From a virus: a stretch of 11,098 nucleotides of DNA. Every line of letters starts with the position of its first letter. The stretch's first letter is position 1. Below the pieces are notes generated by a model that was not told the DNA's origin, made no database searches, and was given only the letters and a program-made list of their open reading frames with translations. The stretch lies in UHGV virus genome UHGV-0320970; one strand, given 5' to 3'. The position numbers and the translations under genes were made by a program. This document shows, one piece after another, positions 1 through 11,098 of the stretch.

Positions 1-54
1 TGGGTACCTCCGTAAACTGACCCTGTAGAATCAGTTGTGCCAGTTGTTCATCTG

Positions 55-362
55 TTAGATTGAGTACGTGAGGAGCCCCTTCCGAAATGCACTTTCCTCA
101 GTAGCGGTTATATTTTCACGTTCATTTTTTGCGTATGCATATACGAAAAAGGCCCTTGTGCCGACGCGATAGAAAATGATTGTGCGATAACCGCCAGATT
201 TGCCGCCACCGACTCGTGGCAGACGTTGCTTGATAACGCCGTTACCCAGGTTTGCTGAGATAAGCCCGTTATCAGCCTGTTTAACAATTTCGCGCAGTGA
301 TTGGTCGGATATTTTGTTTTGCGTGCAAGTCGCTCAAACCAGGCGTTTTTAAAAATGCGCAT
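55..362 (-). pseudogene. RelE/ParE-superfamily (HigB-like) type II toxin, disrupted by a single-nucleotide frameshift in an A-run
   Basis: Minus-strand ATG at 360-362 gives MRIFKNAWFERLARK; after the A-run (plus coords ~312-320) the reading continues in another frame as ISDQSLREIVKQADNGLISANLGNGVIKQRLPRVGGGKSGGYRTIIFYRVGTRAFFVYAYAKNERENI... to TAA (55-57). The GKSGGYR ... FFxYAxAKNE pattern is typical of this toxin family. No single frame spans the gene; the track ORF 108..425 is the wrong-frame continuation. Confidence 0.5.
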
Positions 363-384
363 TTTTTGTTCCGTTATTAATGTA

Positions 385-399
385 TAACACATAGTGTTA
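385..399. promoter_or_regulatory. Perfect 6-3-6 inverted repeat TAACAC-ATA-GTGTTA just upstream of the toxin start; candidate operator
   Basis: Palindrome read directly from the sequence, 23 bp upstream of the minus-strand toxin ATG. TA operons are commonly autoregulated at such palindromes. Confidence 0.3.
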
Positions 400-428
400 C
401 ATTGCGTAGGGATCTGCAATGCCATCAG

Positions 429-459
429 TTTGACAACGTCGCGTGTTCGGGGCTATATT
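429..459 (+). promoter_or_regulatory. Candidate sigma70 promoter (TTGACA, ~19 bp spacer, TATATT) facing the nin-type operon
   Basis: Consensus -35 hexamer at 429-434 and -10-like hexamer at 454-459; the spacer is longer than optimal. Motif match only. Confidence 0.2.
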
Positions 460-704
460 CCTCACGCGCCAGCAAAACCTGGCGTCGGGATTAGCACCCC
501 GGATATCGAAACGGTGCATAACCGCGCTGGCGGTTTTTTTATGCGCTAAGCACAGTCACATTCGCGATTTATGGCGGGCTGTGTGGGGGAGCCGAAAGGC
601 TCGCCGGATGTTTCGACCGGTAGTGCTAACCCCGCACAGTTCGCCACCACGATGATTAGCACCTGACGGTGGCGAGGTAAAAATTATCGAAACGCGAGGT
701 CATT

Positions 705-1370
705 ATGGCTGTTCAAATTTCTGTCGAAAACCTTTCCCCTGTTACCTATAACCAGATCCCCGTAATTACTACTGAACTGTTGGCTCACCTTTACGGAACA
801 AAAATCAAAAACATTTCTGATAACTTTCTGAACAACACGACGCGATTCATGCCCGGAAAGCATTACTTTAAAATTGAAAAAAACGAATTACGCGAGTTTA
901 AGAACAGACCCGAAACAATCGGGTTAGTTGGTAAAAATGCCCGCTCCCTCATCCTCTGGACAGAACGCGGCGCAGCCCGTCACGCAAAAATGCTCGAAAC
1001 CGATCGGGCGTGGGAGGTATTCGAAAAACTGGAAGACTGCTATTTCAGCCAGGGAAAAACAGCACCAACCGAACAGCAGCCGCAGATTCAGCCACAATTC
1101 ACAGCCGAAGAAATCATCCTCCTTTGCTACATGCAGCTCTGGATGGAAAAAGCCCAGGACCTCAGCAAACACCTGTATCCCATTATGAAAGAGCTGAACT
1201 CCTCATACACGAACAAGCTGTATGACATTGCGTTTGAGACCATCTACATGGTGACGAAGAACAGAGACGCGCTACTAAGGGAGGTAACACGTCTCGACAT
1301 GTCAAGTTCCGTTATCCAGCGGGCCATGCCAATGCTGAAAAGCCTGCGGGCAAGACAATTTGAATTCTGA
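705..1370 (+). CDS. Phage antirepressor/regulatory-like protein (ORF6N / KilA-N / Roi-like N-terminal DNA-binding domain), 221 aa
   Basis: Long ORF with SD GAGGT 5 nt upstream of the ATG. The N-terminal ~110 aa (VITTELLAHLYGTKIKNISDNFLNN...KNELREF) resembles the N-domain of phage antirepressor-type proteins. It sits immediately upstream of ninB, as in lambdoid nin regions. Family assignment is from recall. Confidence 0.75.
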   Translation: MAVQISVENLSPVTYNQIPVITTELLAHLYGTKIKNISDNFLNNTTRFMPGKHYFKIEKNELREFKNRPETIGLVGKNARSLILWTERGAARHAKMLETDRAWEVFEKLEDCYFSQGKTAPTEQQPQIQPQFTAEEIILLCYMQLWMEKAQDLSKHLYPIMKELNSSYTNKLYDIAFETIYMVTKNRDALLREVTRLDMSSSVIQRAMPMLKSLRARQFEF

Positions 1371-1375
1371 AACTA

Positions 1376-1397
1376 AAGGAGCTTCGGCTCCTTTTTT
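1376..1397 (+). terminator. Intrinsic terminator (AAGGAGC-TTCG-GCTCCTT followed by a T-run), tR2-like position upstream of ninB
   Basis: 7-bp GC-containing stem, 4-nt loop and T6 tail, starting 6 nt after the stop codon of the preceding gene. Confidence 0.6.
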
Positions 1398-1424
1398 GTT
1401 GGGAAAATCCAGTGAGAGGGAATA

Positions 1425-1835
1425 ATGAACCAGACTATCTTCCTCCGAAGTAAACAGCAGCAACAATTCGCCATTAACGCCATCCTTGCAACAACTCTCG
1501 ATAAAGACAAACCCGTTACGATCCGCATCACCGATTACAAGCGGAATCTCGATCAAAATGCCAAATTTCACGCGATGGTCGCTGATATCTCCCGACAGGT
1601 TCAGTGGTGCGGCAGATGGCTAAAACCAGAACAGTGGAAAGTTTTGTTAATCAGCGGTCATGCCGTGGCTACAAAACAGGAAGCTGATGTTTTGCCAGGT
1701 CTTGAAGGTGAATACGTCAATATCCGCGAAAGCAGTGCGCAGATGAGCGTGAAGCGTATGGCAAGCCTGATTGAGTACACAACTTCCTGGGCTGTGGAGC
1801 AGGGTGTCAGATTTACCGACAGGAGGTATGAATGA
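1425..1835 (+). CDS. ninB: NinB-like recombination protein (136 aa)
   Basis: Translation ...[38 protein letters not shown]... aligns by eye with lambda NinB (...RNRSLDQNRKLWACLGDVSRQVEWHGRWL...). SD GAGGG upstream; the stop overlaps the next start. Confidence 0.9.
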
Positions 1836-2023
1836 GACGACAGCGACGAAGCATTACCGATATAGTCTGTGAAAACTGCAATTACCTTCCAACGAAACGC
1901 TCCCGAAATAAACCCAGGCCAATCCCCAACGAATCTGATGTAAAAACCTTCAATTATACGTCTCACCTGTGGGATGTCCGGTGGCTCAGACGTCGTGCAA
2001 GATTTAATAGTCACTCCGGATAG
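1832..2023 (+). CDS. ninE: NinE-like protein (63 aa)
   Basis: [56 protein letters not shown] matches the lambdoid NinE family. The start overlaps the ninB stop (ATGA), the canonical gene order. Confidence 0.85.
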
Positions 2024-2043
2024 TTCAATGTACGAGGAATAAG

Positions 2044-2337
2044 ATGATGGCAAACCTACGCAAAGAAGCGCGTGGCAGAGAATGTCAGGTACGGATTTAC
2101 GGCGTATGCAATGGCAATCCTGAAACTACAGTTTTGGCGCATTACCGAATAGCTGGAATTTGCGGAACGGGAATGAAGCCAGATGACCTGTTGGCTGCAT
2201 GGGCCTGTAGTGACTGCCATAATGAAATCGATCGCCGTACTCGCATTCTCGACAACAACGACGCCAGACTTTACCACCTGGAAGGCGTGATCAGGACGCA
2301 GGCGATATTGCTGAAGGAGGGGAAGATTAAGTCATGA
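2044..2337 (+). CDS. ybcO: YbcO-like DUF1364 protein (Cys/His-rich putative nuclease), 97 aa
   Basis: ARGRECQVRIYGVCNGNPETTVLAH...CSDCHNEIDRR pattern matches the DLP12 YbcO family. Tandem ATGs at 2044 and 2047; the stop overlaps the rusA start. Confidence 0.8.
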   Translation: MMANLRKEARGRECQVRIYGVCNGNPETTVLAHYRIAGICGTGMKPDDLLAAWACSDCHNEIDRRTRILDNNDARLYHLEGVIRTQAILLKEGKIKS

Positions 2338-2696
2338 ATGAATATGAGTTTGTGCTTCCCTGGCCGCCGACGGTGAATACCTACTGGCGAAGACGGGGAA
2401 GCCAGTACTACATCAGCGATAAAGTCCAGAAATACCGAAAAGACGTACAGCAAATCATCCGGCAACTCAGATTAGACATTTTCACTAAATCACGACTTCG
2501 CATCACAATTATTGCTGAACCACCAGACTCCCGCCGTCGCGACCTCGATAACATCCTGAAAGGTTTACTCGACTCTCTTATCCACGCCGGATTTGCGGAA
2601 GACGACGAGCAATTCGATGACATTCGCGTAATTCGCGGCGTGAAAGTGCCTGGCGGTAGAGTGGGGATAAAAATCACCGAACTGGAGAACATTTGA
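2334..2696 (+). CDS. rusA: RusA Holliday-junction resolvase (120 aa)
   Basis: MNEYEFVLPWPPTVNTYW...RRRDLDNILKGLLDSL...DDEQFDDIRV closely parallels E. coli RusA, including the acidic catalytic region. Start overlaps the ybcO stop (ATGA). Confidence 0.92.
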   Translation: MNEYEFVLPWPPTVNTYWRRRGSQYYISDKVQKYRKDVQQIIRQLRLDIFTKSRLRITIIAEPPDSRRRDLDNILKGLLDSLIHAGFAEDDEQFDDIRVIRGVKVPGGRVGIKITELENI

Positions 2697-2890
2697 TGAA
2701 TGCTAAAATTCAAACGATACCTGAATTACTGATCTGCACCAGGGGAAATCAGACAGAAGTCGCCAGAATACTGAACTGCAATCGTGCTACAGTCAGAAAA
2801 TACATTGATGATAAAGATGCGAAAAAGCACGCCGTCGTCAATGGCGTCCTTATGGTTCATCGCGGATGGGGTAAAGATACTGATGCGTGA
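2696..2890 (+). CDS. ninH: NinH-like protein (64 aa)
   Basis: ...[52 protein letters not shown] resembles lambda NinH (HTH-like). The ATG at 2696 overlaps the rusA stop; the track start at 2693 is a TTG three nt upstream. Confidence 0.85.
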
Positions 2891-3263
2891 TATCCGGCAG
2901 GTTCTTGAGCGCTGGGGGGCATGGGCGGTAAATAACTATGAGGATGTTACATGGTCGCCCATTGCTGCCGGATTTAAGGGACTGATCCCCGAAAAAGTAA
3001 AATCACGTCCACAGTGCTGTGACGATGATGCGATGGTGATATGCGGGTGCATAGCCCGCCTTTACCGGAACAATCGCGATCTGCATGACTTGCTGGTTGA
3101 TTACTACGTGTTGGGGGAGACGTTCATGGCGCTGGCACGTAAGCATGGATGCTCTGATGGAACTATCGGTAAAAAATTACAGAAAGCGGAGGGCGTGGTT
3201 GAAGGGATGTTAATGTTACTTGGTGTCAGACTGGAAATGGACCGATATGCGCAACGCCTCTGA
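2883..3263 (+). CDS. Q: Late-gene antiterminator Q, short phage-82 / QuuD-like type (126 aa)
   Basis: The track ORF starts at 2784, but that portion overlaps ninH out of frame. The ATG at 2883 overlaps the ninH stop (ATGCGTGA) and gives [24 protein letters not shown]...[12 protein letters not shown]...[10 protein letters not shown], which matches short Q antiterminators. Last gene of the nin operon, as expected. Confidence 0.85.
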
Positions 3264-3302
3264 CAGGAGGCGTTTGCCGTTCACTATGTGAAGTGTGTCA
3301 AT

Positions 3303-3332
3303 TTGTGAGCGTTATGCTGTTTACTTTATAGT
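3303..3332 (+). promoter_or_regulatory. Candidate late promoter pR' / qut region (TTGTGA, 18 bp, TATAGT)
   Basis: Sits in the 131-bp gap directly downstream of Q, where lambdoid phages carry pR' and the Q-utilisation site. Hexamer match only; the exact promoter is not certain. Confidence 0.3.
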
Positions 3333-3394
3333 ACAGGGACGTAAGAGTTATCTACCTGTTAATAACATATATACAACAATGAACAGGGGGCAAA

Positions 3395-3988
3395 ATGGAC
3401 ATTGAAGATTTTCTGGAGGCGGAAGACAATGATCTGTCTCTGTGGAATGATGATATTTTAAGCATTGACTGGTTCGTTATCCTCAAAGAGCTTTTGAAAT
3501 ACCAGAACAGGTTAAAGTTAAACTATTCAGAATTACTTCTGCTGGCTAATTTTGTTTCATTTCACCAGGACGTAGATTCGCAAACATTACCATCAATATC
3601 TCTTTTTGCCACCAGAATGCGTGCATCTCGTGCCATTATAGAAGAAGGCTTTCAACGCCTGGAGGAGAAAGGGATGTTGCAGAAGATAAGTTATGCTCAA
3701 ATCGGTCATGATTATGATTTGCGGAACGTTTATGACATCAAGCCATTAATTCGTAAGTTAATTGAGGTGCTGAAAACCGAGTATGATAAAAAGCACACTT
3801 GCCCCCTCTGCGGCAAAATAGCTGTCTCTGATGAGGAAATTGAGAAAAAATTCGGATTCAGAATTTGCGGGAATAAGAAAAGGCCGCAAAGCTGGTGCCG
3901 TTCATGCAGAAGCACGAAACAACGCAGACTGAATTCATCGCTAATTGGCAAAAAAAAGCCCCGAAAATCTCCGCCCGAGGTGGTGTGA
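3395..3988 (+). CDS. Moron-like hypothetical protein, 197 aa: acidic N-terminus, winged-helix-like core, C-terminal zinc-ribbon-like motif and basic tail
   Basis: Strong SD AGGGGG 6 nt before the ATG. Visibly more AT-rich than the nin genes. Core ...RASRAIIEEGFQRLEEKGMLQKI... resembles a winged-helix recognition region. C-terminus has CPLCG ... CRSCR and a Lys/Arg-rich tail. I recognise no family. Confidence 0.7.
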   Translation: MDIEDFLEAEDNDLSLWNDDILSIDWFVILKELLKYQNRLKLNYSELLLLANFVSFHQDVDSQTLPSISLFATRMRASRAIIEEGFQRLEEKGMLQKISYAQIGHDYDLRNVYDIKPLIRKLIEVLKTEYDKKHTCPLCGKIAVSDEEIEKKFGFRICGNKKRPQSWCRSCRSTKQRRLNSSLIGKKKPRKSPPEVV

Positions 3989-4101
3989 AGCGTCGCGGAA
4001 CCCCGGATTCCACTCACGATTGAACGAGGTGCTAAAAAGTATTTTACGTACGTAAAAATCTGCATATCATGATAAGAGTGGTTACATTGCCACGCTGCTT
4101 A

Positions 4102-4126
4102 ACCCGCCGATGCGCGGGTTTTTTTG
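4102..4126 (+). terminator. Intrinsic terminator (ACCCGC-CGATGC-GCGGGT followed by a T-run)
   Basis: GC-rich 6-bp stem followed by T7, about 110 nt downstream of the moron gene stop. Candidate tR'-equivalent or moron terminator. Confidence 0.6.
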
Positions 4127-4305
4127 TACCCAGAATCCTGTGAGCTATACGGAAAGTACACAGAAAGGAAGGTACGACCGCAATTAATAACAAAATCTTA
4201 AAAATCTCATATGGCACTATTAGTTTTCTAAATATTGTATATTTTAAGTATTGCAGGATAACCCTGTAACGAAGTTTGCGTAACAGCATTTTGCTCTACG
4301 AGTTT

Positions 4306-4336
4306 GCCAGCCTCCCCTGGTGGCTGGCTTTTTTTG
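4306..4336 (+). terminator. Intrinsic terminator (GCCAGCC-TCCCCTGGT-GGCTGGC followed by a T-run)
   Basis: Perfect 7-bp GC-rich stem, 9-nt loop and T7 tail. Confidence 0.65.
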
Positions 4337-4421
4337 TATCCGTTCAACGGGAATGTTACATACCTCACAATTAAGTCAGTTGAATGTTGTCTGCCCGGAT
4401 GAGAATTTGTTAGAAAAAACT

Positions 4422-4450
4422 GCATGGTGAATCCCCCTGAGCGGAGGGGC
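4422..4450. repeat. Outer inverted repeat P1 (29 bp), left copy
   Basis: GCATGGTGAATCCCCCTGAGCGGAGGGGC; its reverse complement recurs at 4817-4845 with one mismatch. Confidence 0.85.
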
Positions 4451-4520
4451 GACTGGTGACGGTATAATCTCTGATTATCAAAACGAGAATGACGCGGGTT
4501 TAGTGGCACCGGGCTGAACT

Positions 4521-4575
4521 CACCGGGAGGCACCCGGCACCATGCAATGGCACATAGCGCCACTCTCCAGCCCCT
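4521..4575. repeat. Repeat unit 'a' (55 bp), left arm of a perfect inverted repeat
   Basis: CACCGGGAGGCACCCGGCACCATGCAATGGCACATAGCGCCACTCTCCAGCCCCT; exact reverse complement at 4708-4762 (55/55). Confidence 0.95.
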
Positions 4576-4707
4576 CTCCGGAGGGGCTTTCTTATGGACA
4601 AAAAAGCCCGCGCTGGGAGACGCGGGCGGCAAGGAATAAACAATAAAACGTGAAGTAATATTTCAGCTGGCGAATAATACCCCATAGTAATCACTCTGCG
4701 CAACTGC
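4576..4707. repeat. Spacer S (132 bp) enclosed by the 'a' inverted repeat; contains convergent terminator-like hairpins
   Basis: Plus-strand hairpin GCCCCTC-TCCG-GAGGGGC followed by TTTCTT at the a/S boundary. Minus-strand hairpin GCCCGCG...CGCGGGC followed by a T-run (plus coords ~4600-4627). A near-identical copy of S lies at 10917-11049. Confidence 0.85.
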
Positions 4708-4762
4708 AGGGGCTGGAGAGTGGCGCTATGTGCCATTGCATGGTGCCGGGTGCCTCCCGGTG
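4708..4762. repeat. Repeat unit a' (inverted copy of 'a')
   Basis: Exact reverse complement of 4521-4575. Confidence 0.95.
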
Positions 4763-4816
4763 AATTCAGTACCAGCACCTGAATCCGCGATTATCCCATA
4801 TACCTACTCGCTGATT

Positions 4817-4845
4817 GCCCCTCCGCACAGGGGGATTCACCATGC
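4817..4845. repeat. Outer inverted repeat P1', right copy
   Basis: Reverse complement of 4422-4450 with a single mismatch. Confidence 0.85.
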
Positions 4846-4891
4846 CAGTTTCTTTTAACAAACTCCCCGCAAACCAGACAACAGTCAACCG

Positions 4892-4946
4892 CCGGCACCA
4901 TGCAATGGCACATAGCGCCACTCTCCAGCCCCTCTCCGGAGGGGCT
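4892..4946. repeat. Third copy of the 'a' unit, direct orientation
   Basis: 55/55 identical to 4534-4588 (CCGGCACCATGCAATGGCACATAGCGCCACTCTCCAGCCCCTCTCCGGAGGGGCT); flanks differ. Confidence 0.9.
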
Positions 4947-4981
4947 GTTTATATTGATTTTGTCAGATGTGAGTAAACTCC

Positions 4982-5317
4982 TTATGGACTTTGTTGTTTT
5001 AGCCCATAAGGACATATTTGCAGAGTGCAACGGTTATTAAAGCATTCATTCAATACGTTATCTGTATTTGTAGGGCATTCCTGGCTGTTTTTGATTAAAT
5101 TCCAGAATGTTTTATTGAATGGTACTACGTTGTAAATGGTTACAGGTAGCACTTTGTTATTGAGCATGATGCCTGTGTGAGTCAGTGTAAATATACTTTC
5201 AGGAGGTAAGAAAGCATCCGATTGATACCAGATTATTAATTTTATTTTACTCCATATGACTGAAAAAGATATTCCGCATGATGGCTGGATAACTGTATCA
5301 ATCACAATCCACTTCAT
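4982..5317 (-). CDS. Hypothetical protein (111 aa) in an AT-rich island, orientation opposite to neighbours
   Basis: ORF with plausible SD AAGGAA 6 nt upstream of the ATG on the minus strand. Very AT-rich and similar to nothing I recognise; could be a spurious ORF. Confidence 0.3.
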
Positions 5318-5577
5318 TTAGTTTCCTTGTTTATGCCTTGCTGGTGATGTTCTGAAAAGTATAAATGATATTTTTGATTGTAAACCATAGAGCAGAATTA
5401 TTTTTCTGATGTTGTTTATTGTTTATTTAAATGCAGGGTGGTTTATATCTCGTCTTGTAGTTTATCCATGCATATCTGCTTGATGATGAGGTTTTTATTT
5501 AAGGTATGGTTTTGTGTTTTTTCTGTATTACATGTCAGGTATTTTAAAGAATCATTTTTCAGATGGTGGAAAGAACC

Positions 5578-7521
5578 ATGGCATTTAAACACTATGATGT
5601 TGTCAGGGCGGCGTCGCCGTCAGATCTTGCGGAAAAGCTGACACATAAACTGAAAGAGGGCTGGCAGCCGTTTGGCAGTCCTGTGGCTATCACGCCTTAT
5701 ACACTGATGCAGGCCATTGCCGCAGAGGGTGATGTGACCACGCCTGTGGTTGTGCCCGACACAGGGGCTGGTGGCTCTCCGGGAGTGGCTACCACTGAAC
5801 CGGAGTATTACTACGTTATTCCCCTGGCCGGGCAGTCGAACGGTATGGCCTATGGTGAGGGGCTTCCTCTGCCGGAGACCTATGATCGCCCTGACTCCCG
5901 TATTAAGCAGCTGGCCCGTCGCAGCACTGTGACGCCGGGTGGTGATACCTGTGCATACAATGACGTTATTCCGGCAGACCACTGTCTGCATGATGTTCAG
6001 GACATGAGCGCACTTAACCATCCTCATGCAGACCTGAGTAAGGGCCAGTACGGGACTGTCGGTCAGGGGCTGCATATTGCCAAAAAACTGCTGCCTTATA
6101 TCCCGCAGAATGCCGGGATTCTTCTGGTGCCCTGTTGCCGTGGCGGGTCTGGTTTAACCGTGGGTAATGACGGCACGTTCAGCGAAACGTCTGGTGCATC
6201 GGCAAATTCAGCCCGCTGGGGAGTGGGTAAACCGCTGTATCAGGATTTTCTCTTCCGTACAAAAGCGGCGCTGTCGAAGAACCCGAAAAACAGGCTTCTG
6301 GCCGTGGTATGGATGCAGGGGGAAAATGATCTTGCGGACGGCAGTCAGCAGCACAGCGGCCTGTTTACCACTATGGTGCAGCAGTTCAGGGCTGATATGG
6401 CTGCATATTCTGCACAGTGTGTTGGCGGAAGTGCTGGCTCGGTGCCGTGGATTTGTGGTGACACCACGTATTACTGGAAGAATCTTAACGCCGATAAATA
6501 TGAGGCGGTATATGGCGGTTACAAGGGCAGGGAAGCACAGAATATTTTCTTTGTACCGTTCCTGACGGATGAGAATGGACAGAGCACGCCAACGAATGCT
6601 CCGGCGGAAGACCCGGATATTGTGGCTGTCGGGTATTACGGTGCAGCATCCCGAACCCAGGGCAGTTTTGTTTCGACACAGCGTGACAGCCATTTCAGCT
6701 CATGGGCACGCAGGGGCGTCATTTCAGACCGTCTGGCCTCAGCTATTATGCTCCATGCAGGGCGCACGGCTGAATTGATGCGCGGGCAGACCGTGACACC
6801 ACCGGATGAGAAGCCGTCACCTGATACACCATCAAAACCGTCCACGCCACCCGCAGACACCACGACGATGAGTACGCTATTTGCTTACCGGGCATCTGAG
6901 TCTGAAGGACGGTTGACACCACAGGGTTGGGCTGCTGGAGGTGGCAAGGCTCAAATCGTGGATGATGCCGGAGCCAGCGGGGGTAAGGCAATGAAACTGA
7001 CCAAGGAAACAGGAAGAGCCCCCTGGTACCTTGAGCATGATGCTGGTAATGGTGCGGACCTGCTGGGTAAAGGTGGTCTTGTCAGTTGTCGTTTTAAACT
7101 CGATGGCGCGCTTACGGCTAATCAGTACGCACTGGCGCTGTACTGGCCGGTTTCTTCATTGCCTCAGGGTGTCACACTGGAAGGTAATGCCGGTAACAAT
7201 CTGCTGGCGTCGTTTTACGTACAGAGCGATGCCACAGACCTCAACGTGATGTACCACAAGGGTAACGCTGACCAGAACACGAAGCTGGGGTCATTCGGCG
7301 CATTTGACAACGAATGGCATACGCTGGGTTTCCGTTTTGCCGGTAATAACAGCATTCAGGTGACGCCGGTGATTGATGGTCAGGATGGTGCACCGTTCAT
7401 GCTGTCGCAGTCTCCGGTAGGTTCTTTTGCGGCAGACAAATTACGTGTAACGGATATCACAAAAGCGGCGACGTATACGGTGCTGATTGAAAGTATAACA
7501 GTGGAAGTGAATAACCCGTAA
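5578..7521 (+). CDS. nanS-p: Prophage NanS-p-type sialate O-acetylesterase (N-terminal DUF1737-like domain, SGNH/SASA esterase core, C-terminal putative carbohydrate-binding domain), 647 aa
   Basis: The paralogue starts MAFKHYDVV, so the ATG at 5578 is preferred over the track start at 5563. Core contains YYYVIPLAGQSNGMAYGEG (GQSN nucleophile motif) and CGDTTYYW. Located in the post-Q slot where lambdoid and Stx prophages carry nanS-p. Confidence 0.88.
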   Translation: MAFKHYDVVRAASPSDLAEKLTHKLKEGWQPFGSPVAITPYTLMQAIAAEGDVTTPVVVPDTGAGGSPGVATTEPEYYYVIPLAGQSNGMAYGEGLPLPETYDRPDSRIKQLARRSTVTPGGDTCAYNDVIPADHCLHDVQDMSALNHPHADLSKGQYGTVGQGLHIAKKLLPYIPQNAGILLVPCCRGGSGLTVGNDGTFSETSGASANSARWGVGKPLYQDFLFRTKAALSKNPKNRLLAVVWMQGENDLADGSQQHSGLFTTMVQQFRADMAAYSAQCVGGSAGSVPWICGDTTYYWKNLNADKYEAVYGGYKGREAQNIFFVPFLTDENGQSTPTNAPAEDPDIVAVGYYGAASRTQGSFVSTQRDSHFSSWARRGVISDRLASAIMLHAGRTAELMRGQTVTPPDEKPSPDTPSKPSTPPADTTTMSTLFAYRASESEGRLTPQGWAAGGGKAQIVDDAGASGGKAMKLTKETGRAPWYLEHDAGNGADLLGKGGLVSCRFKLDGALTANQYALALYWPVSSLPQGVTLEGNAGNNLLASFYVQSDATDLNVMYHKGNADQNTKLGSFGAFDNEWHTLGFRFAGNNSIQVTPVIDGQDGAPFMLSQSPVGSFAADKLRVTDITKAATYTVLIESITVEVNNP

Positions 7522-7669
7522 GCAGGAAAAAAAGACCGCCGTGGCAGGGAAAACAAGGAGCCAGAACCGGCGGCAGAAGTCGCTACATCCTTAGCAAAAA
7601 TATGCTGAGCAAAAAATGCAGGAGTTTTTTACTGGCAGGCATTGACCATGTCAATAATGGAGATGAATA

Positions 7670-7852
7670 ATGACATTTTTACAGCTGATTATGTTGTATT
7701 TCTGTACAGCAGTTTGTGTGCTGTATCTTCTTTCTGGTGGGTACAGAGTCGTGAGAGATTTCTGGCGCAGACAGATTGACAAAAGGGCCGCTGAGAAAAT
7801 CAGTGCCAGTCAGTCAGCCGGAACAAAACCCGAAGAGCCTCTCATTCCGTAG
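7670..7852 (+). CDS. Small single-pass membrane protein (60 aa), paralogue of 8424..8606
   Basis: MTFLQLIMLYFCTAVCVLYLLSGGY is a hydrophobic helix, followed by a charged tail. SD GGAG upstream. A diverged copy is conserved on the opposite arm. Confidence 0.6.
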   Translation: MTFLQLIMLYFCTAVCVLYLLSGGYRVVRDFWRRQIDKRAAEKISASQSAGTKPEEPLIP

Positions 7853-7889
7853 CAACTTTCTTAACAACACCTTTCAACGAGAAAATACC

Positions 7890-8414
7890 ATGTCAGAAAT
7901 AAAATCGCTGGTCACTGCTGAAGCAGTGAAGGAAGTCCTGCGCTCTGAAGAAGTCAGAAGCGCACTGAAACAGCAACTTCGGCAGAACCTTGAGGCGCGT
8001 CTTGATGCAGAAGTGGATGCCATTCTGGATGAACTGCTGGGCGCACCGACTGTTCCGGAGCCGGAAGGCATTGCGTACCCCGTCTCCCGCAATCCGGAAG
8101 CTCACAACAATATAAAGACCACCGGCACACACCGATGGTCCCTTGCGCATGCTTACATCATCATGTCGCTGTCAGGTGTAGGTTCACCGCCATCTGAAGC
8201 ACTCCCGTCACCCGCGATACCTTCCGGCTCAGGAACCGCTGCTACGCCCAGCAGCTCATCCAGAATGGCATCCACTTCTGCATCAAGACGCGACTCAAGA
8301 TTCTGGCGAAGTTTCTGTTTCAGTGCGCTCCGGACCTCTTCAGAGCGCAGGACTTCCTTCACTGCCTCTGCAGTGACCAGGGATGTGATTTCTGACATGG
8401 GATTTTCTCGCTGA
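7890..8414 (+). CDS. 81-aa-family acidic helical protein, plus-arm copy; homology ends near 8078 and the ORF then reads through the palindrome centre antisense to the other copy (possibly truncated or fused)
   Basis: MSEIKSLVTAEAVKEVLRSEEVRSALKQQLRQNLEARLDAEVDAILDELLG...PEPEGIA matches the minus-arm copy for 63 aa, then diverges with no nearby stop. Confidence 0.45.
   Translation: MSEIKSLVTAEAVKEVLRSEEVRSALKQQLRQNLEARLDAEVDAILDELLGAPTVPEPEGIAYPVSRNPEAHNNIKTTGTHRWSLAHAYIIMSLSGVGSPPSEALPSPAIPSGSGTAATPSSSSRMASTSASRRDSRFWRSFCFSALRTSSERRTSFTASAVTRDVISDMGFSR
8153..8398 (-). CDS. 81-aa acidic helical protein, minus-arm copy (apparently intact)
   Basis: MSEITSLVTAEAVKEVLRSEEVRSALKQKLRQNLESRLDAEVDAILDELLG...PEPEGIAGDGSASDGGEPTPDSDMMM with its own stop at 8153-8155. 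Confidence 0.6.
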   Translation of the reverse strand: MSEITSLVTAEAVKEVLRSEEVRSALKQKLRQNLESRLDAEVDAILDELLGVAAVPEPEGIAGDGSASDGGEPTPDSDMMM

Positions 8415-8423
8415 AAGGGGTTG

Positions 8424-8606
8424 TTAAGGAGTAACGGGTTCTTCGGGTTTGCTTCCGGCTGACTGACTGGCGCTGATTTTCTCAGCGGCCCTTTTATCAA
8501 TCTGCCTGCACCAGAAATCGCGCACAGCCCTGTACCCACCCGAAAGAAGATACAGCACACAGACCGCCGTACAGAAGTACAGCATCACCTGATGAATAAA
8601 TGTCAT
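8424..8606 (-). CDS. Small single-pass membrane protein (60 aa), paralogue of 7670..7852
   Basis: MTFIHQVMLYFCTAVCVLYLLSGGYRAVRDFWCRQIDKRAAEKISASQSAGSKPEEPVTP; diverged from the plus-arm copy at several positions, so not a recent exact duplicate. Confidence 0.6.
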   Translation of the reverse strand: MTFIHQVMLYFCTAVCVLYLLSGGYRAVRDFWCRQIDKRAAEKISASQSAGSKPEEPVTP

Positions 8607-8745
8607 AATTTCTTACCGTTATGGTTGACAATGAGAATTGTTTTCATTTAAAAAACCAATGTACGAAAGCATCTTTTCTTTACATTCTCCATTGGGATTA
8701 CCTCCGCCAGCTTCCATTCCTGCCGCTGGCGGCTTTTTTTAGCAA

Positions 8746-10656
8746 TTATGCGGCTGCTCCAGCTTTGTTTGCTTTAACTTCCACCGTATCAATAAGTACA
8801 GGGTAGGTTTCTGCACTACCTGTAATATCCGTAATGACAAACCTGTTGAGTCCATTAGCAGTATTGGCCCATTTCACCAGGTCAAACGCCTGTCCATCCA
8901 CACCATCGAGCACCGGAGTAACATTAATGCTGTTACTGCCCTTAAATTTAAATGCAAGCGTATGCCAGTCATGGTCGAATGCGCCAAACGTGCCAAGTTC
9001 TTTTTGTTGATTAACTGTATGATGGTATGCAACATTAATACTGGCTTTATCTGTCTGGACAAAGAAAGAACTCAGATGGCCTTCACCACCCTCACCCGGC
9101 CATTCCGCTATTCGCCAGTACAAACCAAAGGCATACTTGTTTCTGGTTGTCTCAAGATTGACGTTTTCGGGGATTTTAAACCGGACAGCAATTTCCCCGC
9201 CTTTTTCCAGTAAAAGTTTTGCCTTGTCTGCAGCAATATCACAGTACATTGACCAGGATTTCGCGCTGTTATTTTTCTCAATTCGCAGAGCTTTATTGCC
9301 GCTGTCATCAACCAGTGTGCGTCTGCCATACATACCGTCCCAGCCATAAGGTTTCAGCTGATTGTCTGTAGCTTTTTTGGCATCGTAAAAAATTACAGAC
9401 TCTGAGGTGGTAACCGGCCTGTCTGGAACAACCACCCCGGCAGTACCATTAACAAACGCAGAAGACTTACCCGCGCAGCTCAGAATCGCCGTTGCCAGAC
9501 GGTCGGAAATAATCCCACGGCGAGCCCATGAACTGAAATGGCTCGCCCTGTCCTGTGACGTCCAGGTGGCTGAGCTGTCACGCCATTTCGAACCGTAATA
9601 ACCGATACCCGGAATGTCCGGGTCTTCTTCCGGTTTGTTCGTCGGCACATTCACCCCGTTCTCATCGGTCATGAACGGTACGAAATGGATATTCTTTTCC
9701 GTTTTATTTTTATAGCTGCCGTACACCGTCTGGTACGTGGATTCGTTCTTCTGCTTCCAGAAATACGTCGTGTCCCCGCATATCCAGGGAACACCGCCAG
9801 CAGAGCCACCGACGCACTGGCCTGCCATATCCGCCAGGTCTGCACGGAATTTATCAACCAGCGCACCAAACTGTGCGGCATGATTTGCCGGCGTACCGCC
9901 AAAATCAAATTCCCCCTGCATCCACACCACGGCAAACAGCACATTTTTCGGGTTCTTCTCCAGTGCCGCTTTTGTTCGACCGATAAGGTCCTTATACAGC
10001 GGCTTGTCCACACCCCAGCGGGTTGAATTCTCCGAGGCACCACTCGCGTCACTGTATGTGCCATCAGCTCCGGTGGTGAACGCTGAACCACCACGACAGC
10101 ACGGAACCAGCAGAATGCCCGCATTCGCCGGTATAAACGGCAGCAGTTTTTTGGCGATATGCAGCCCCTGCCCCACGGTTCCGTACTGCCCCTTTGACAG
10201 GTCCGCTTTCGGATGGTTAAGACGGCTCATGTCCTGCACATCATGCAGACAATGGTCCGCCGGAATGATGTCGTTATATTTGCATGCTGCACCGCCCGGT
10301 GTCACCGTACTGCGACGCGCTAACTGTTTAATACGTGGATCAGGGCTGTCGAATGTATCCGGTAATGGCAGTCCCTCACCGTATGACATACCATTGGACT
10401 GACCAGCAAGCGCGATCACATAGTAATATTCTGGCGCAACAGAAGGCGCTGAGGTCGTCGGACGGTTGCCTGGCTCCTCTGGTGATGAGATGCTCCCCTC
10501 ACTCACAACTGGCTGGATGAACTCCGCACCATAACCAGCTGTCGAAATCAGCGCACTACCATAAGGCTGCCACCCTTCCTTCAGTTTTTGAGTTATTCGT
10601 TTCGCAAGGTCTGACGGCGACGCCGCCCTGACAACATCATAGTGTTTAAATGCCAT
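8746..10656 (-). CDS. nanS-p: Second, diverged NanS-p-type sialate O-acetylesterase (636 aa)
   Basis: MAFKHYDVVRAASPSDLA..., YYYVIALAGQSNGMSYGEG, CGDTTYFW. Strong SD GGGAGG 5 nt upstream on the minus strand. Same three-domain layout as 5578..7521 but with many substitutions, especially in the linker and C-terminal domain. Confidence 0.9.
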   Translation of the reverse strand: MAFKHYDVVRAASPSDLAKRITQKLKEGWQPYGSALISTAGYGAEFIQPVVSEGSISSPEEPGNRPTTSAPSVAPEYYYVIALAGQSNGMSYGEGLPLPDTFDSPDPRIKQLARRSTVTPGGAACKYNDIIPADHCLHDVQDMSRLNHPKADLSKGQYGTVGQGLHIAKKLLPFIPANAGILLVPCCRGGSAFTTGADGTYSDASGASENSTRWGVDKPLYKDLIGRTKAALEKNPKNVLFAVVWMQGEFDFGGTPANHAAQFGALVDKFRADLADMAGQCVGGSAGGVPWICGDTTYFWKQKNESTYQTVYGSYKNKTEKNIHFVPFMTDENGVNVPTNKPEEDPDIPGIGYYGSKWRDSSATWTSQDRASHFSSWARRGIISDRLATAILSCAGKSSAFVNGTAGVVVPDRPVTTSESVIFYDAKKATDNQLKPYGWDGMYGRRTLVDDSGNKALRIEKNNSAKSWSMYCDIAADKAKLLLEKGGEIAVRFKIPENVNLETTRNKYAFGLYWRIAEWPGEGGEGHLSSFFVQTDKASINVAYHHTVNQQKELGTFGAFDHDWHTLAFKFKGSNSINVTPVLDGVDGQAFDLVKWANTANGLNRFVITDITGSAETYPVLIDTVEVKANKAGAAA

Positions 10657-10720
10657 GAATCCTCCCGGCCGGGATAATATTGTGAGTAAAATAAGGAGCG
10701 GGCTGAAGTCCGGAAGTTAC

Positions 10721-10838
10721 AGGACAATGGCAGAAGGGAGACTACAGCCCGCAATTCGAAAAAGGTCGCGCAGTTGCGCAGAGTGATTACTATGGGGTAT
10801 TATTCGCCAGCTGAAATATTACTTCACGTTTTATTGTT
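10721..10838. repeat. Left arm of the terminal palindrome (118 bp)
   Basis: Reverse complement of 10981-11098, checked by eye over both ends. Its inner ~70 bp is the reverse complement of the right part of spacer S. Confidence 0.85.
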
Positions 10839-10916
10839 GATTCAGGTGCTGGTACTGAATTCACCGGGAGGCACCCGGCACCATGCAATGGCACATAGCG
10901 CCACTCTCCAGCCCCT
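10839..10916. repeat. 78-bp block identical to the reverse complement of 4708-4785 (flank R0 plus unit 'a')
   Basis: GATTCAGGTGCTGGTACTGAATT followed by the 55-bp 'a' unit; exact match to the reverse complement of the locus-1 a'+flank. Confidence 0.9.
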
Positions 10917-11049
10917 CTCCGGAGGGGCTTTCTTGTGGGCAAAAAAAGCCCGCGCTGGGAGACGCGGGCGGCAAGGAATAAACAATAAAACGTGAAGTAA
11001 TATTTCAGCTGGCGAATAATACCCCATAGTAATCACTCTGCGCAACTGC
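10917..11049. repeat. Second copy of spacer S, same plus-strand orientation as 4576-4707
   Basis: Near-identical to 4576-4707 apart from an extra A in the A-run and two substitutions (CTTATGGACA vs CTTGTGGGCA). Confidence 0.9.
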
Positions 11050-11098
11050 GCGACCTTTTTCGAATTGCGGGCTGTAGTCTCCCTTCTGCCATTGTCCT
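10981..11098. repeat. Right arm of the terminal palindrome, running to the window edge
   Basis: Reverse complement of 10721-10838; the palindrome may continue beyond the window. Confidence 0.85.

What the first reader, a model, noticed from the sequence alone, without database searches (positions are those of the whole stretch)
55..399. Frameshifted RelE/ParE-like toxin gene with an operator-like palindrome at the window's left edge
The toxin's N-terminus (MRIFKNAWFERLARK) and its conserved core (...GGGKSGGYRTIIFYR...FFVYAYAKNERENI...) lie in different frames, switching inside a short A-run, consistent with a single-base indel. This may be a genuinely inactivated toxin, perhaps tolerated after loss of the antitoxin, or a homopolymer sequencing error. 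A perfect TAACAC-ATA-GTGTTA palindrome sits just upstream, as expected for an autoregulated TA promoter. Any partner antitoxin would lie beyond coordinate 1.
Basis: partly seen in the sequence, partly recalled or inferred. Interest (0 to 1): 0.5.

Follow-up and report, generated by a model that had tools for sequence, protein, structure and literature searches.

The report
Decayed prophage HigB2-type toxin gene
This is the dead remnant of a prophage toxin gene from a HigB2/HigA2-type toxin-antitoxin pair, broken by two real one-base deletions, with its conserved operator still in place and its antitoxin starting just past the window edge in every relative; it is an ordinary case of toxin decay.

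Summary
On the minus strand, a PF06296 (HigB2-type RelE/ParE) toxin gene starts at 362, and its N-terminus and core lie in different frames. The second deletion creates the false stop at 55-57; the ancestral gene ran 8 nt past the window's left edge. Both deletions recur in many independent complete E. coli genomes, so they are mutations, not sequencing errors. Only 6 of 38 E. coli genomes with this locus keep an intact toxin, and at least four kinds of lesion occur. The antitoxin (HigA2-like XRE-HTH) is not lost: it is full length in all 12 relatives examined and starts at the base just left of window position 1. The palindrome alone is not statistically significant. It is, however, the core of a 19-bp dyad (383-401) found at the same distance upstream of the toxin start in 44 of 44 divergent loci, against 1 background hit in 106 kb, and it matches the architecture of the mapped V. 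cholerae HigA2 operator. Verdict: a known kind of system in a decayed state; low interest.

The parts
1..362 (-). Remnant of a HigB2-family (PF06296) toxin gene. The native ATG is at 362-360, and the ancestral 372-bp CDS would end 8 nt beyond the window's left edge.
   Evidence: Pfam hits; alignment to intact alleles L003, L004, L006 and L011.
317..320 (-). Deletion 1: an A5 run shortened to A4 (TTTT on the + strand), at nt 43-47 of the reference gene. It shifts the frame after codon 15.
   Evidence: Shared by AST198, the FORC_069 type, the O104:H4 type, PS2C, LZHX12 and phage PhiR12_3.
77..78 (-). Deletion 2: loss of the C in GGAAGG[C]GGCTCC (reference nt 287; on the + strand GGAGCC[G]CCTTCC becomes CCCC at 76-79). 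It shifts the frame again and removes the C-terminal 28 residues (A96 to E123).
   Evidence: Absent from the FORC_069 type; present in the window, AST198, the O104:H4 type, 23CRST047 and NMBU.
327..329 (-). Codon 12 is CTT (Leu) instead of TTT (Phe), at a residue that is Phe in 44 of the 45 divergent loci printed (Tyr in L037).
108..110 (-). Stop codon reached by ribosomes starting at the native ATG. The product is 84 aa, of which only the first 15 are in the native frame.
   Evidence: (ORF 108..425).
55..57 (-). Stop codon of the core frame, created by deletion 2.
   Evidence: PGAP fragment CDS at window-equivalent 55-261.
383..401 (-). 19-bp dyad TGTAACAC-TAT-GTGTTATA (7 of 8 symmetric, with the perfect 6+3+6 core at 385-399). 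Inferred to be the operator of the HigA2-like antitoxin.
   Evidence: Family-wide conservation in position and sequence; same architecture as the footprinted V. cholerae HigA2 operator (PMC11006873).
381..389 (-). Extended -10-like box TG-T-TATACA overlapping the right arm of the dyad. Inferred to be the toxin-antitoxin promoter.
   Evidence: Sequence reading. TGnTAYAnn recurs in the right arm of the aligned loci. The consensus scan found no full -35/-10 promoter on this strand.
7..11 (-). GGAGG ribosome-binding site of the downstream antitoxin. Its ATG is the three bases just left of window position 1.
   Evidence...ACGGAGGTACCCA|ATGAGTAAA....

Best explanation
The region is a pseudogene of a prophage-borne HigB2-type toxin (Pfam PF06296, RelE/ParE superfamily), the first gene of a toxin-then-antitoxin operon. 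In intact alleles the operon encodes a 123-aa toxin. By homology to V. cholerae HigB2 this is a ribosome-dependent mRNA endonuclease. Its stop codon overlaps by 8 nt the start of a 105-aa HigA2-like antitoxin, which has a C-terminal XRE helix-turn-helix domain. By homology, the antitoxin dimer binds a single 19-bp dyad that overlaps the -10 region and represses the operon. In this window two genuine 1-bp deletions have destroyed the toxin. The first (A5->A4, 317-320) leaves only 15 native-frame residues before an out-of-frame tail that stops at 108-110. The second (77/78) removes the C-terminal 28 residues even if the first were repaired. No ATG, GTG or TTG start gives access to the core frame. 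The promoter/operator, the 3' end of the toxin gene and the antitoxin's own ribosome-binding site are all intact. The locus therefore most likely now expresses only the self-repressing antitoxin. What is shown: the gene identity, the two lesions, their recurrence in independent genomes, the intact antitoxin in relatives, and the conservation of the dyad. What is inferred: mRNase activity, antitoxin binding to the dyad, the promoter position, and presence of the antitoxin in this particular genome.
For: Family: the repaired window protein hits PF06296 at E 1.4e-36. The intact allele covers the profile 1-120 of 120 at E 1.7e-46. The closest solved structures are V. cholerae HigB-2 for the toxin (E 0.003) and HigA-2 for the antitoxin (E 8e-8). 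In the alignment, R60 and Y77 align with the catalytically important Arg64 and Tyr82 of VcHigB2 (PMC5416850). Lesions: alignments place the deletions at reference nt 43-47 and nt 287. The product from the native ATG is 84 aa, with 15 in the native frame. No canonical-start ORF of 20 aa or more exists in the core frame. The lesions are real: 17 complete genomes are 100% identical to window 1-440, at least 9 of them named O104:H4. AST198 and cM8a are 99.8% identical at the same length, and 10 further genomes plus phage PhiR12_3 carry deletion 1 only. Decay pattern: only 6 of 38 E. coli genomes with the locus keep an intact toxin. The lesions include deletion 1, deletion 2, a third 1-bp deletion (23CRST047) and an IS66 insertion (NMBU). 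Antitoxin: it is full length in 12 of 12 relatives. It lies immediately downstream in all 39 divergent loci whose contig extends far enough, starting 364-367 nt after the toxin start in most of them. Operator: AYAC-N3-GTRT lies 33-46 nt upstream of the toxin start in 33 of 46 loci (including the window), against 1 hit in 105,773 nt of flanks. All 44 scored loci match with 2 or fewer mismatches, and the flanks extend the symmetry to 8+3+8. The footprinted V. cholerae HigA2 operator is also a single 19-bp dyad, TGTACGC-N5-GCGTACA, spanning the -10.
Against: The antitoxin gene itself is outside the window, so its presence here is inferred from relatives. No -35/-10 promoter on the minus strand passed the consensus scan. 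The conserved dyad could be conserved partly because it is the promoter rather than a repressor site. The perfect 6+6 palindrome occurs only in the broken alleles; the four intact E. coli alleles examined read TAATAC-TAT-GTGTTA. Similarity to VcHigB2 itself is weak (E 0.003). Fold and activity were not tested.
Confidence: 0.88

Rival explanations
1. The frame breaks are sequencing or assembly errors, and the gene is intact in the organism.
For: Deletion 1 lies in a short homopolymer (A5), a context where long-read errors can occur.
Against: The identical double-deletion allele occurs in 19 complete genomes from different laboratories, and deletion 1 alone occurs in 10 more and in a phage genome. 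Deletion 2 removes a C flanked by G's, not a base from a homopolymer run. An F12L change at a residue that is Phe in 44 of the 45 divergent loci printed fits relaxed constraint.
Confidence: 0.03
2. The A-run is a programmed ribosomal frameshift site or a phase-variable on/off switch that still allows toxin production.
For: The frame change sits in an A-rich slippery-looking stretch, AAAACAAAA.
Against: Intact homologues in E. coli, and nearly all of the 46 divergent loci, read through as one frame with A5 or other codons there, so the shift is not a conserved feature. A4/A5 is far shorter than known slippage tracts (my own knowledge, not tested here). A second deletion downstream would still truncate the protein. 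Other alleles are broken at unrelated positions.
Confidence: 0.03
3. A shorter toxin fragment is still made from an internal non-canonical start, as RefSeq annotates, and keeps some activity.
For: PGAP annotates a 68-aa CDS (window-equivalent 55-261) in AST198 and O104:H4, and a 112-aa CDS in FORC_069. The fragment contains the R60 and Y77 equivalents.
Against: Read from the sequence, those CDSs start at ATC and ATT codons with no visible ribosome-binding site, and no ATG, GTG or TTG ORF exists in that frame. The 68-aa fragment lacks the first 33 residues and the C-terminal 28 residues. By the VcHigB2 structure, in which two N-terminal helices and the long C-terminal helix flank the beta-sheet, these correspond to those helices.
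Confidence: 0.05
4. Toxin loss is selected rather than neutral. The orphan antitoxin is kept as an anti-addiction factor or regulator, and the broken toxin now serves only as its leader.
For: There are at least four kinds of toxin lesion and none in the antitoxin across 12 E. coli loci. Four further loci in other taxa have a degraded toxin and a full-length antitoxin. The operator and the antitoxin's ribosome-binding site are retained.
Against: The first lesion must hit the toxin, because losing the antitoxin first is lethal. Only about 3-4 secondary lesions are therefore informative. By my rough estimate, with target sizes of 372 and 318 bp, all of them falling in the toxin has a probability of about 0.1-0.15. 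The antitoxin sequences are too similar for a selection test, and many of the genomes are clonal.
Confidence: 0.15

Closest known systems
Vibrio cholerae HigB2/HigA2 (VCA0468/0469; PDB 5JA8, 5JA9, 5JAA, 8A0W, 8A0X)
   Same: The toxin belongs to the same Pfam family (PF06296). The gene order is toxin first. The antitoxin has a C-terminal XRE-HTH domain that aligns to HigA2 residues 39-93 (E 8e-8). A single 19-bp dyad operator overlaps the -10. The Arg64 and Tyr82 equivalents are conserved as R60 and Y77.
   Different: The toxins are only distantly similar (E 0.003). The operator half-sites differ (TGTAACAC against TGTACGC). The location is a lambdoid prophage rather than a chromosomal superintegron. 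Here the toxin is a pseudogene.
Intact E. coli prophage alleles of the same module (toxins WP_077168034.1, WP_106894428.1, WP_148711987.1 and WP_033805720.1, with antitoxin WP_000042397.1 or WP_033805719.1)
   Same: About 96-99% DNA identity over window 1-440, the same flanks, and the same neighbouring isrK/C4/antirepressor module.
   Different: They have A5 and the C at reference nt 287, giving a 123-aa ORF. Their dyad core reads TAATAC rather than TAACAC.
Plasmid Rts1 HigB/HigA and E. coli K-12 RelE/RelB
   Same: The same RelE/ParE superfamily and the same autoregulated type II logic (PMC11980606).
   Different: They belong to different Pfam families (PF05015 or PF09907 for HigB; PF05016 for K-12 RelE). 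RelBE has antitoxin-first gene order. No Pfam hit to those families was obtained here.

Membership tests
PF06296 / HigB2-type toxin (RelE/ParE superfamily) | Sequence matches the family profile above the curated cut-off | tested here: met
   The repaired window protein scores 125.7 bits against a cut-off of 27. The intact allele scores 157.8 bits and covers profile positions 1-120 of 120.
PF06296 / HigB2-type toxin (RelE/ParE superfamily) | One uninterrupted ORF encoding the whole domain (a functional gene) | tested here: not met
   There are two 1-bp deletions. The product from the native ATG has 15 native-frame residues, and no canonical start exists in the core frame. The window copy is a pseudogene of the family.
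PF06296 / HigB2-type toxin (RelE/ParE superfamily) | Active-site residues equivalent to VcHigB2 Arg64 and Tyr82 | tested here: met
   R60 and Y77 align with them in the alignment; their roles are taken from PMC5416850. This is sequence-level evidence only, and in the window they lie in the unreachable frame.
PF06296 / HigB2-type toxin (RelE/ParE superfamily) | RelE/BECR fold: a four-stranded sheet with two N-terminal helices and one C-terminal helix | not tested
   No structure prediction was run. The Pfam match was judged sufficient.
PF06296 / HigB2-type toxin (RelE/ParE superfamily) | Ribosome-dependent mRNA cleavage | not testable with these tools
   This needs biochemistry or in vivo toxicity assays on an intact allele.
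HigBA2-type operon | Toxin gene upstream of, and overlapping, an XRE-HTH antitoxin gene | tested here: met
   An 8-nt overlap in the intact and FORC_069-type E. coli alleles. The antitoxin starts 364-367 nt after the toxin start in most of the 39 divergent loci that reach that far. It carries HTH_3 and hits HigA-2 structures. In the window only the antitoxin's ribosome-binding site is visible.
Autoregulated type II TA operator | Inverted repeat overlapping the operon's core promoter, conserved among orthologues | tested here: met
   A 19-bp dyad at -35 to -46 in 44 of 44 scored loci (31 exact, 12 with one mismatch, 1 with two), against 1 background hit in 105,773 nt. An extended -10-like TGnTAYAnn lies in the right arm.
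Autoregulated type II TA operator | The antitoxin binds the repeat and represses transcription | not testable with these tools
   Inferred from the V. cholerae HigA2 footprint and crystal structure (PMC11006873).
Programmed frameshift gene | The frameshift is conserved among homologues | tested here: not met
   Intact single-frame genes occur in 6 E. coli genomes and in nearly all divergent loci.

The most novel reading that the evidence does not exclude
Recurrent toxin inactivation with retention of the self-repressing HigA2-like antitoxin is adaptive. On this reading, the orphan antitoxin protects the lysogen against HigB2-type toxins brought in by other phages or plasmids. Alternatively, it has been recruited as a regulator next to the divergent isrK/C4/antirepressor immunity module. 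The T->C change that perfects the palindrome in broken alleles would then retune its autorepression.
Probability: 0.12. Interest if true: 0.4.

Novelty: new member of a known kind. Interest (0 to 1): 0.15.

Why it matters
It matters little in itself. Toxin genes of type II modules often decay while the antitoxin persists, and the family, gene order and regulation match the well-studied V. cholerae HigBA2 system.

There are three practical points:
- RefSeq annotates these broken toxins as protein-coding fragments with ATT or ATC starts rather than as pseudogenes. This inflates TA counts in strains such as O104:H4.
- The 19-bp dyad TRTMAYAC-TWW-GTGTKAYA is a ready-made operator prediction for a whole subfamily spanning gamma-, beta- and alpha-proteobacteria and cyanobacteria.
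- The mix of lesions across prophages offers a small natural series for asking whether orphan antitoxins are kept by selection.

Tried and rejected
- **Palindrome significance from the window alone.** It is not significant: 5 comparable palindromes in the window, and P of about 0.13 in a shuffled intergenic region. The operator claim therefore rests on comparative data instead.
- **Consensus promoter scan.** It found only the divergent + strand promoter at 430-459 that drives the c4-a1b1/isrK RNAs, and none on the minus strand. The -10 assignment is therefore only an inference.
- **Assuming FORC_069 (one base longer) was the intact allele.** This was wrong. It still carries the A-run deletion and differs only at the second site. 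Truly intact alleles had to be found among more divergent hits.
- **Locating the source genome.** No complete E. coli genome covers more than 50% of the window in one place.
- **Sequencing error and programmed frameshifting.** Both were considered and rejected; see the rival explanations.
- **Selection test on the antitoxin.** Not feasible, because the sequences are nearly identical and many genomes are clonal.
- **Searches not run.** Structure prediction and the large protein-database searches were not run, because the full-length Pfam match at E 1e-46 left no doubt about the family.
- **A failed script.** The first Python run for palindrome statistics timed out and was rerun.

Full report
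**1. What is in the sequence.**

The feature is on the minus strand. From the ATG at 362-360 the sequence reads MRIFKNAWFERLARK and then continues out of frame. The recognisable core (...GNGVIKQRLPRVGGGKSGGYRTIIFYRVGTRAFFVYAYAKNERENITATEES...) is in a different frame and stops at 55-57. The palindrome TAACAC-ATA-GTGTTA is at 385-399, and its near end is 23 nt upstream of the ATG. Joining the two frames gives a protein that hits Pfam PF06296 ('RelE') at 125.7 bits against a curated cut-off of 27, E 1.4e-36. Only profile positions 1-95 of 120 were covered, which was the first sign that the C-terminus is also damaged.

**2. Locating the lesions.**

The same DNA occurs in lambdoid prophages of E. 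coli.

- **FORC_069 is not intact.** It is one base longer than the window, but the extra base is a C near the 3' end of the gene (GGAAGG[C]GGCTCC, window 77/78). It is not in the A-run, and FORC_069 carries the same A-run sequence as the window.
- **Truly intact alleles.** HCP4S3_I4, 2013C-3033, SCU-104 and JNEC-KY203 carry a 372-bp, 123-aa gene that covers the whole PF06296 profile (1-120 of 120, E 1.7e-46). Its stop overlaps the start of a downstream helix-turn-helix gene by 8 nt.
- **The window's lesions.** Against these alleles the window has two 1-bp deletions. Deletion 1 is A5->A4 at 317-320 (reference nt 43-47). Deletion 2 is the loss of the C at reference nt 287, between window 77 and 78.
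- **A further substitution.** The window also has F12L, in the WFERF motif. Residue 12 is Phe in 44 of the 45 divergent homologues whose N-termini were printed, and Tyr in L037.
- **Consequences.** Translation from the native ATG gives 84 residues, of which only 15 are in the native frame, and stops at 108-110. No ATG, GTG or TTG ORF of 20 aa or more exists in the core frame. Even if deletion 1 were repaired, the last 28 residues would be replaced by GLLTYSI and a stop. The ancestral gene ran 8 nt past the left edge of the window.

**3. Real mutation or error?**

Thirty-eight complete E. coli genomes carry the locus.

| Allele state | Genomes | Notes |
|---|---|---|
| Both deletions, as in the window | 19 | 17 are 100% identical to window 1-440, at least 9 of them named O104:H4; AST198 and cM8a are 99.8% identical at the same length |
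| Deletion 1 only | 10 | FORC_069 type (8), PS2Canimalfeces12, LZHX12 |
| Deletion 2 plus a different 1-bp deletion at reference nt 269 | 2 | 23CRST047 and 23CRST049; A5 run intact |
| IS66 element inserted in the toxin, plus deletion 2 | 1 | NMBU-W12E19 |
| Intact toxin | 6 | H60 and H63-H67 |

Alleles that were not fetched individually were assigned from identical match length and identity. The phage genome record PhiR12_3 (host ECOR13) also has deletion 1. Deletion 2 removes a C flanked by G's, so it is not a homopolymer length change. Sequencing error is therefore excluded for practical purposes. The different combinations of lesions fit either recombination among mosaic prophages or recurrent events, and I could not separate these.

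**4. The antitoxin is not lost.**

In all 12 near-identical loci the gene immediately downstream is a full-length ORF of 105 or 106 aa. It carries a Pfam HTH_3 domain at residues 50-94. Its best solved relative is V. cholerae HigA-2 (E 8e-8, residues 45-99 aligned to 39-93). Its ATG is the three bases immediately left of window position 1. Its GGAGG ribosome-binding site is inside the window at 7-11, so it does not depend on translational coupling to the broken toxin. In the 39 divergent loci whose contigs extend far enough, an antitoxin homologue lies immediately downstream. In most of them it starts 364-367 nt after the toxin start. Presence of the antitoxin in this particular genome is an inference, because the window ends there.

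**5. Family and mechanism.**

PF06296 is the HigB2 family. [quoted passage not shown] The closest solved toxin is V. cholerae HigB-2, although the similarity is weak (E 0.003). In that alignment R60 and Y77 of the intact E. coli protein match Arg64 and Tyr82, which are catalytically important in VcHigB2 (PMC5416850). VcHigA2 neutralises the toxin through a disordered N-terminal segment and binds DNA through its C-terminal HTH dimer. The E. coli antitoxin has the same layout at the sequence level. Activity and fold were not tested here.

**6. The palindrome.**

Taken alone it is weak evidence. The comparative test is strong.

- **Sample.** 46 loci encoding toxins 41-69% identical to the intact E. 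coli toxin by tblastn, 47-67% among the 36 matched over the full length. They come from Chromatiaceae, Halomonas, Marinobacter, Brucella, Herbaspirillum, cyanobacteria and others.
- **Motif frequency.** AYAC-N3-GTRT lies 33-46 nt upstream of the toxin start in 33 of the 46 sequences tested (44 of these loci plus the window and HCP4S3_I4). There is 1 hit in 105,773 nt of flanking DNA.
- **Near-matches.** All 44 scored loci match with 2 or fewer mismatches at that position: 31 exact, 12 with one mismatch, 1 with two.
- **Extended symmetry.** Position-specific counts extend the symmetry to 8+3+8, TRTMAYAC-TWW-GTGTKAYA. In the window this is TGTAACAC-TAT-GTGTTATA (383-401), with 7 of 8 positions symmetric.
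- **Promoter overlap.** The right arm contains an extended -10-like TGnTAYAnn box (TGTTATACA at 389-381 in the window).
- **Known parallel.** The footprinted and crystallised V. cholerae HigA2 operator is likewise a single 19-bp dyad, TGTACGC-N5-GCGTACA, running from just after the -35 over the -10 (PMC11006873).

The operator reading is therefore well supported by analogy and conservation, though binding has not been shown. One oddity remains. The perfect 6+6 core is found only in the broken E. coli alleles, and the four intact ones read TAATAC. This may be simple linkage.

**7. Interpretation.**

This is a HigBA2-type addiction or defence module of a lambdoid prophage whose toxin has decayed. 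The order of events fits ordinary pseudogene decay. One inactivating deletion came first (deletion 1 is the most widespread lesion), followed by further damage (deletion 2 and F12L). The operator, promoter and antitoxin persist. The same pattern appears in other taxa: L049 and L052 are frameshifted, L054 is truncated, and L058 has an internal deletion, all with full-length antitoxin hits.

Whether antitoxin retention is selected cannot be decided. The first lesion must be in the toxin, and the few informative secondary lesions all falling in the toxin has a probability of roughly 0.1-0.15 by my rough estimate from target sizes.

**8. Novelty and score.**

This is a known family, a known architecture and a common fate. 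RefSeq already names the fragments 'type II toxin-antitoxin system RelE/ParE family toxin', although it treats them as CDSs with ATT or ATC starts rather than as pseudogenes. The family-wide operator consensus is a modest by-product. Interest is low.

Noticed in passing
window 430-1370 (+): Back to back with the TA promoter lies a strong promoter, TTGACA-18-TATATT (430-459). It drives Rfam c4-a1b1 (453-505), isrK (466-540, with a terminator at 512-545) and the C4 antisense RNA (567-651). These are followed by an ORF6N/P22AR antirepressor gene (705-1370). Together they form a P1/P7 ImmI-like, Gifsy-1 isrK-type antirepressor control module.
   Followed up: partly
L001 1584-3000 and equivalents (left of the window in relatives): In relatives the HigBA2-like pair sits in a cluster of addiction modules: hokD, a 59-aa ORF followed by a Doc/Fic-family toxin, then the HTH antitoxin. 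SCU-104 and KY203 instead carry an extra HigA-family antitoxin gene.
   Followed up: partly
L001 3055-3261, L002 2993-3331, L005 1555-1761: RefSeq/PGAP annotates the broken toxin as protein-coding fragments (WP_228355587.1, 68 aa; WP_226867305.1, 112 aa). Read from the sequence, these begin at non-canonical ATC and ATT codons, and they are not flagged as pseudogenes.
   Followed up: yes
window 5563-7521 (+) and 8746-10656 (-): Two DUF1737-SASA-DUF6645 (NanS-p-like esterase) genes face each other and are only about 76-83% alike. Between them a DUF826 gene (7776-8414) lies inside an imperfect inverted repeat (7654-8075 against 8213-8622). This looks like a head-to-head junction of two prophage late regions, or an inversion.
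   Followed up: partly
window 4394-4599 (+), 4698-4874 (-), 10751-10940 (+): There are three copies of the Rfam sRNA family STnc100. Two of them are close together in opposite orientation, downstream of the Q antiterminator gene.
   Followed up: no
window 10721-10843 and 10976-11098: A 123-nt inverted repeat, 99% complementary, with 132 nt between the arms. It runs up to the right edge of the window and overlaps the third STnc100 copy.
   Followed up: no
L049, L052, L054, L058: Outside E. coli, four homologous loci have a frameshifted, truncated or internally deleted toxin next to a full-length antitoxin. They come from a Lamprobacter MAG, Herbaspirillum sp. ASV7, Brucella pecoris and a Methylococcaceae MAG. 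Some of the MAG cases could be assembly errors.
   Followed up: partly
window 1-11098: No complete E. coli genome in the collection covers more than 50% of the window in one place, so the prophage is a mosaic not represented as such. Window 1-440 is 100% identical to O104:H4-type genomes, but 1-675 is only 92% identical to them. There is therefore a recombination breakpoint near 440-450, between the TA promoter and the isrK module.
   Followed up: partly
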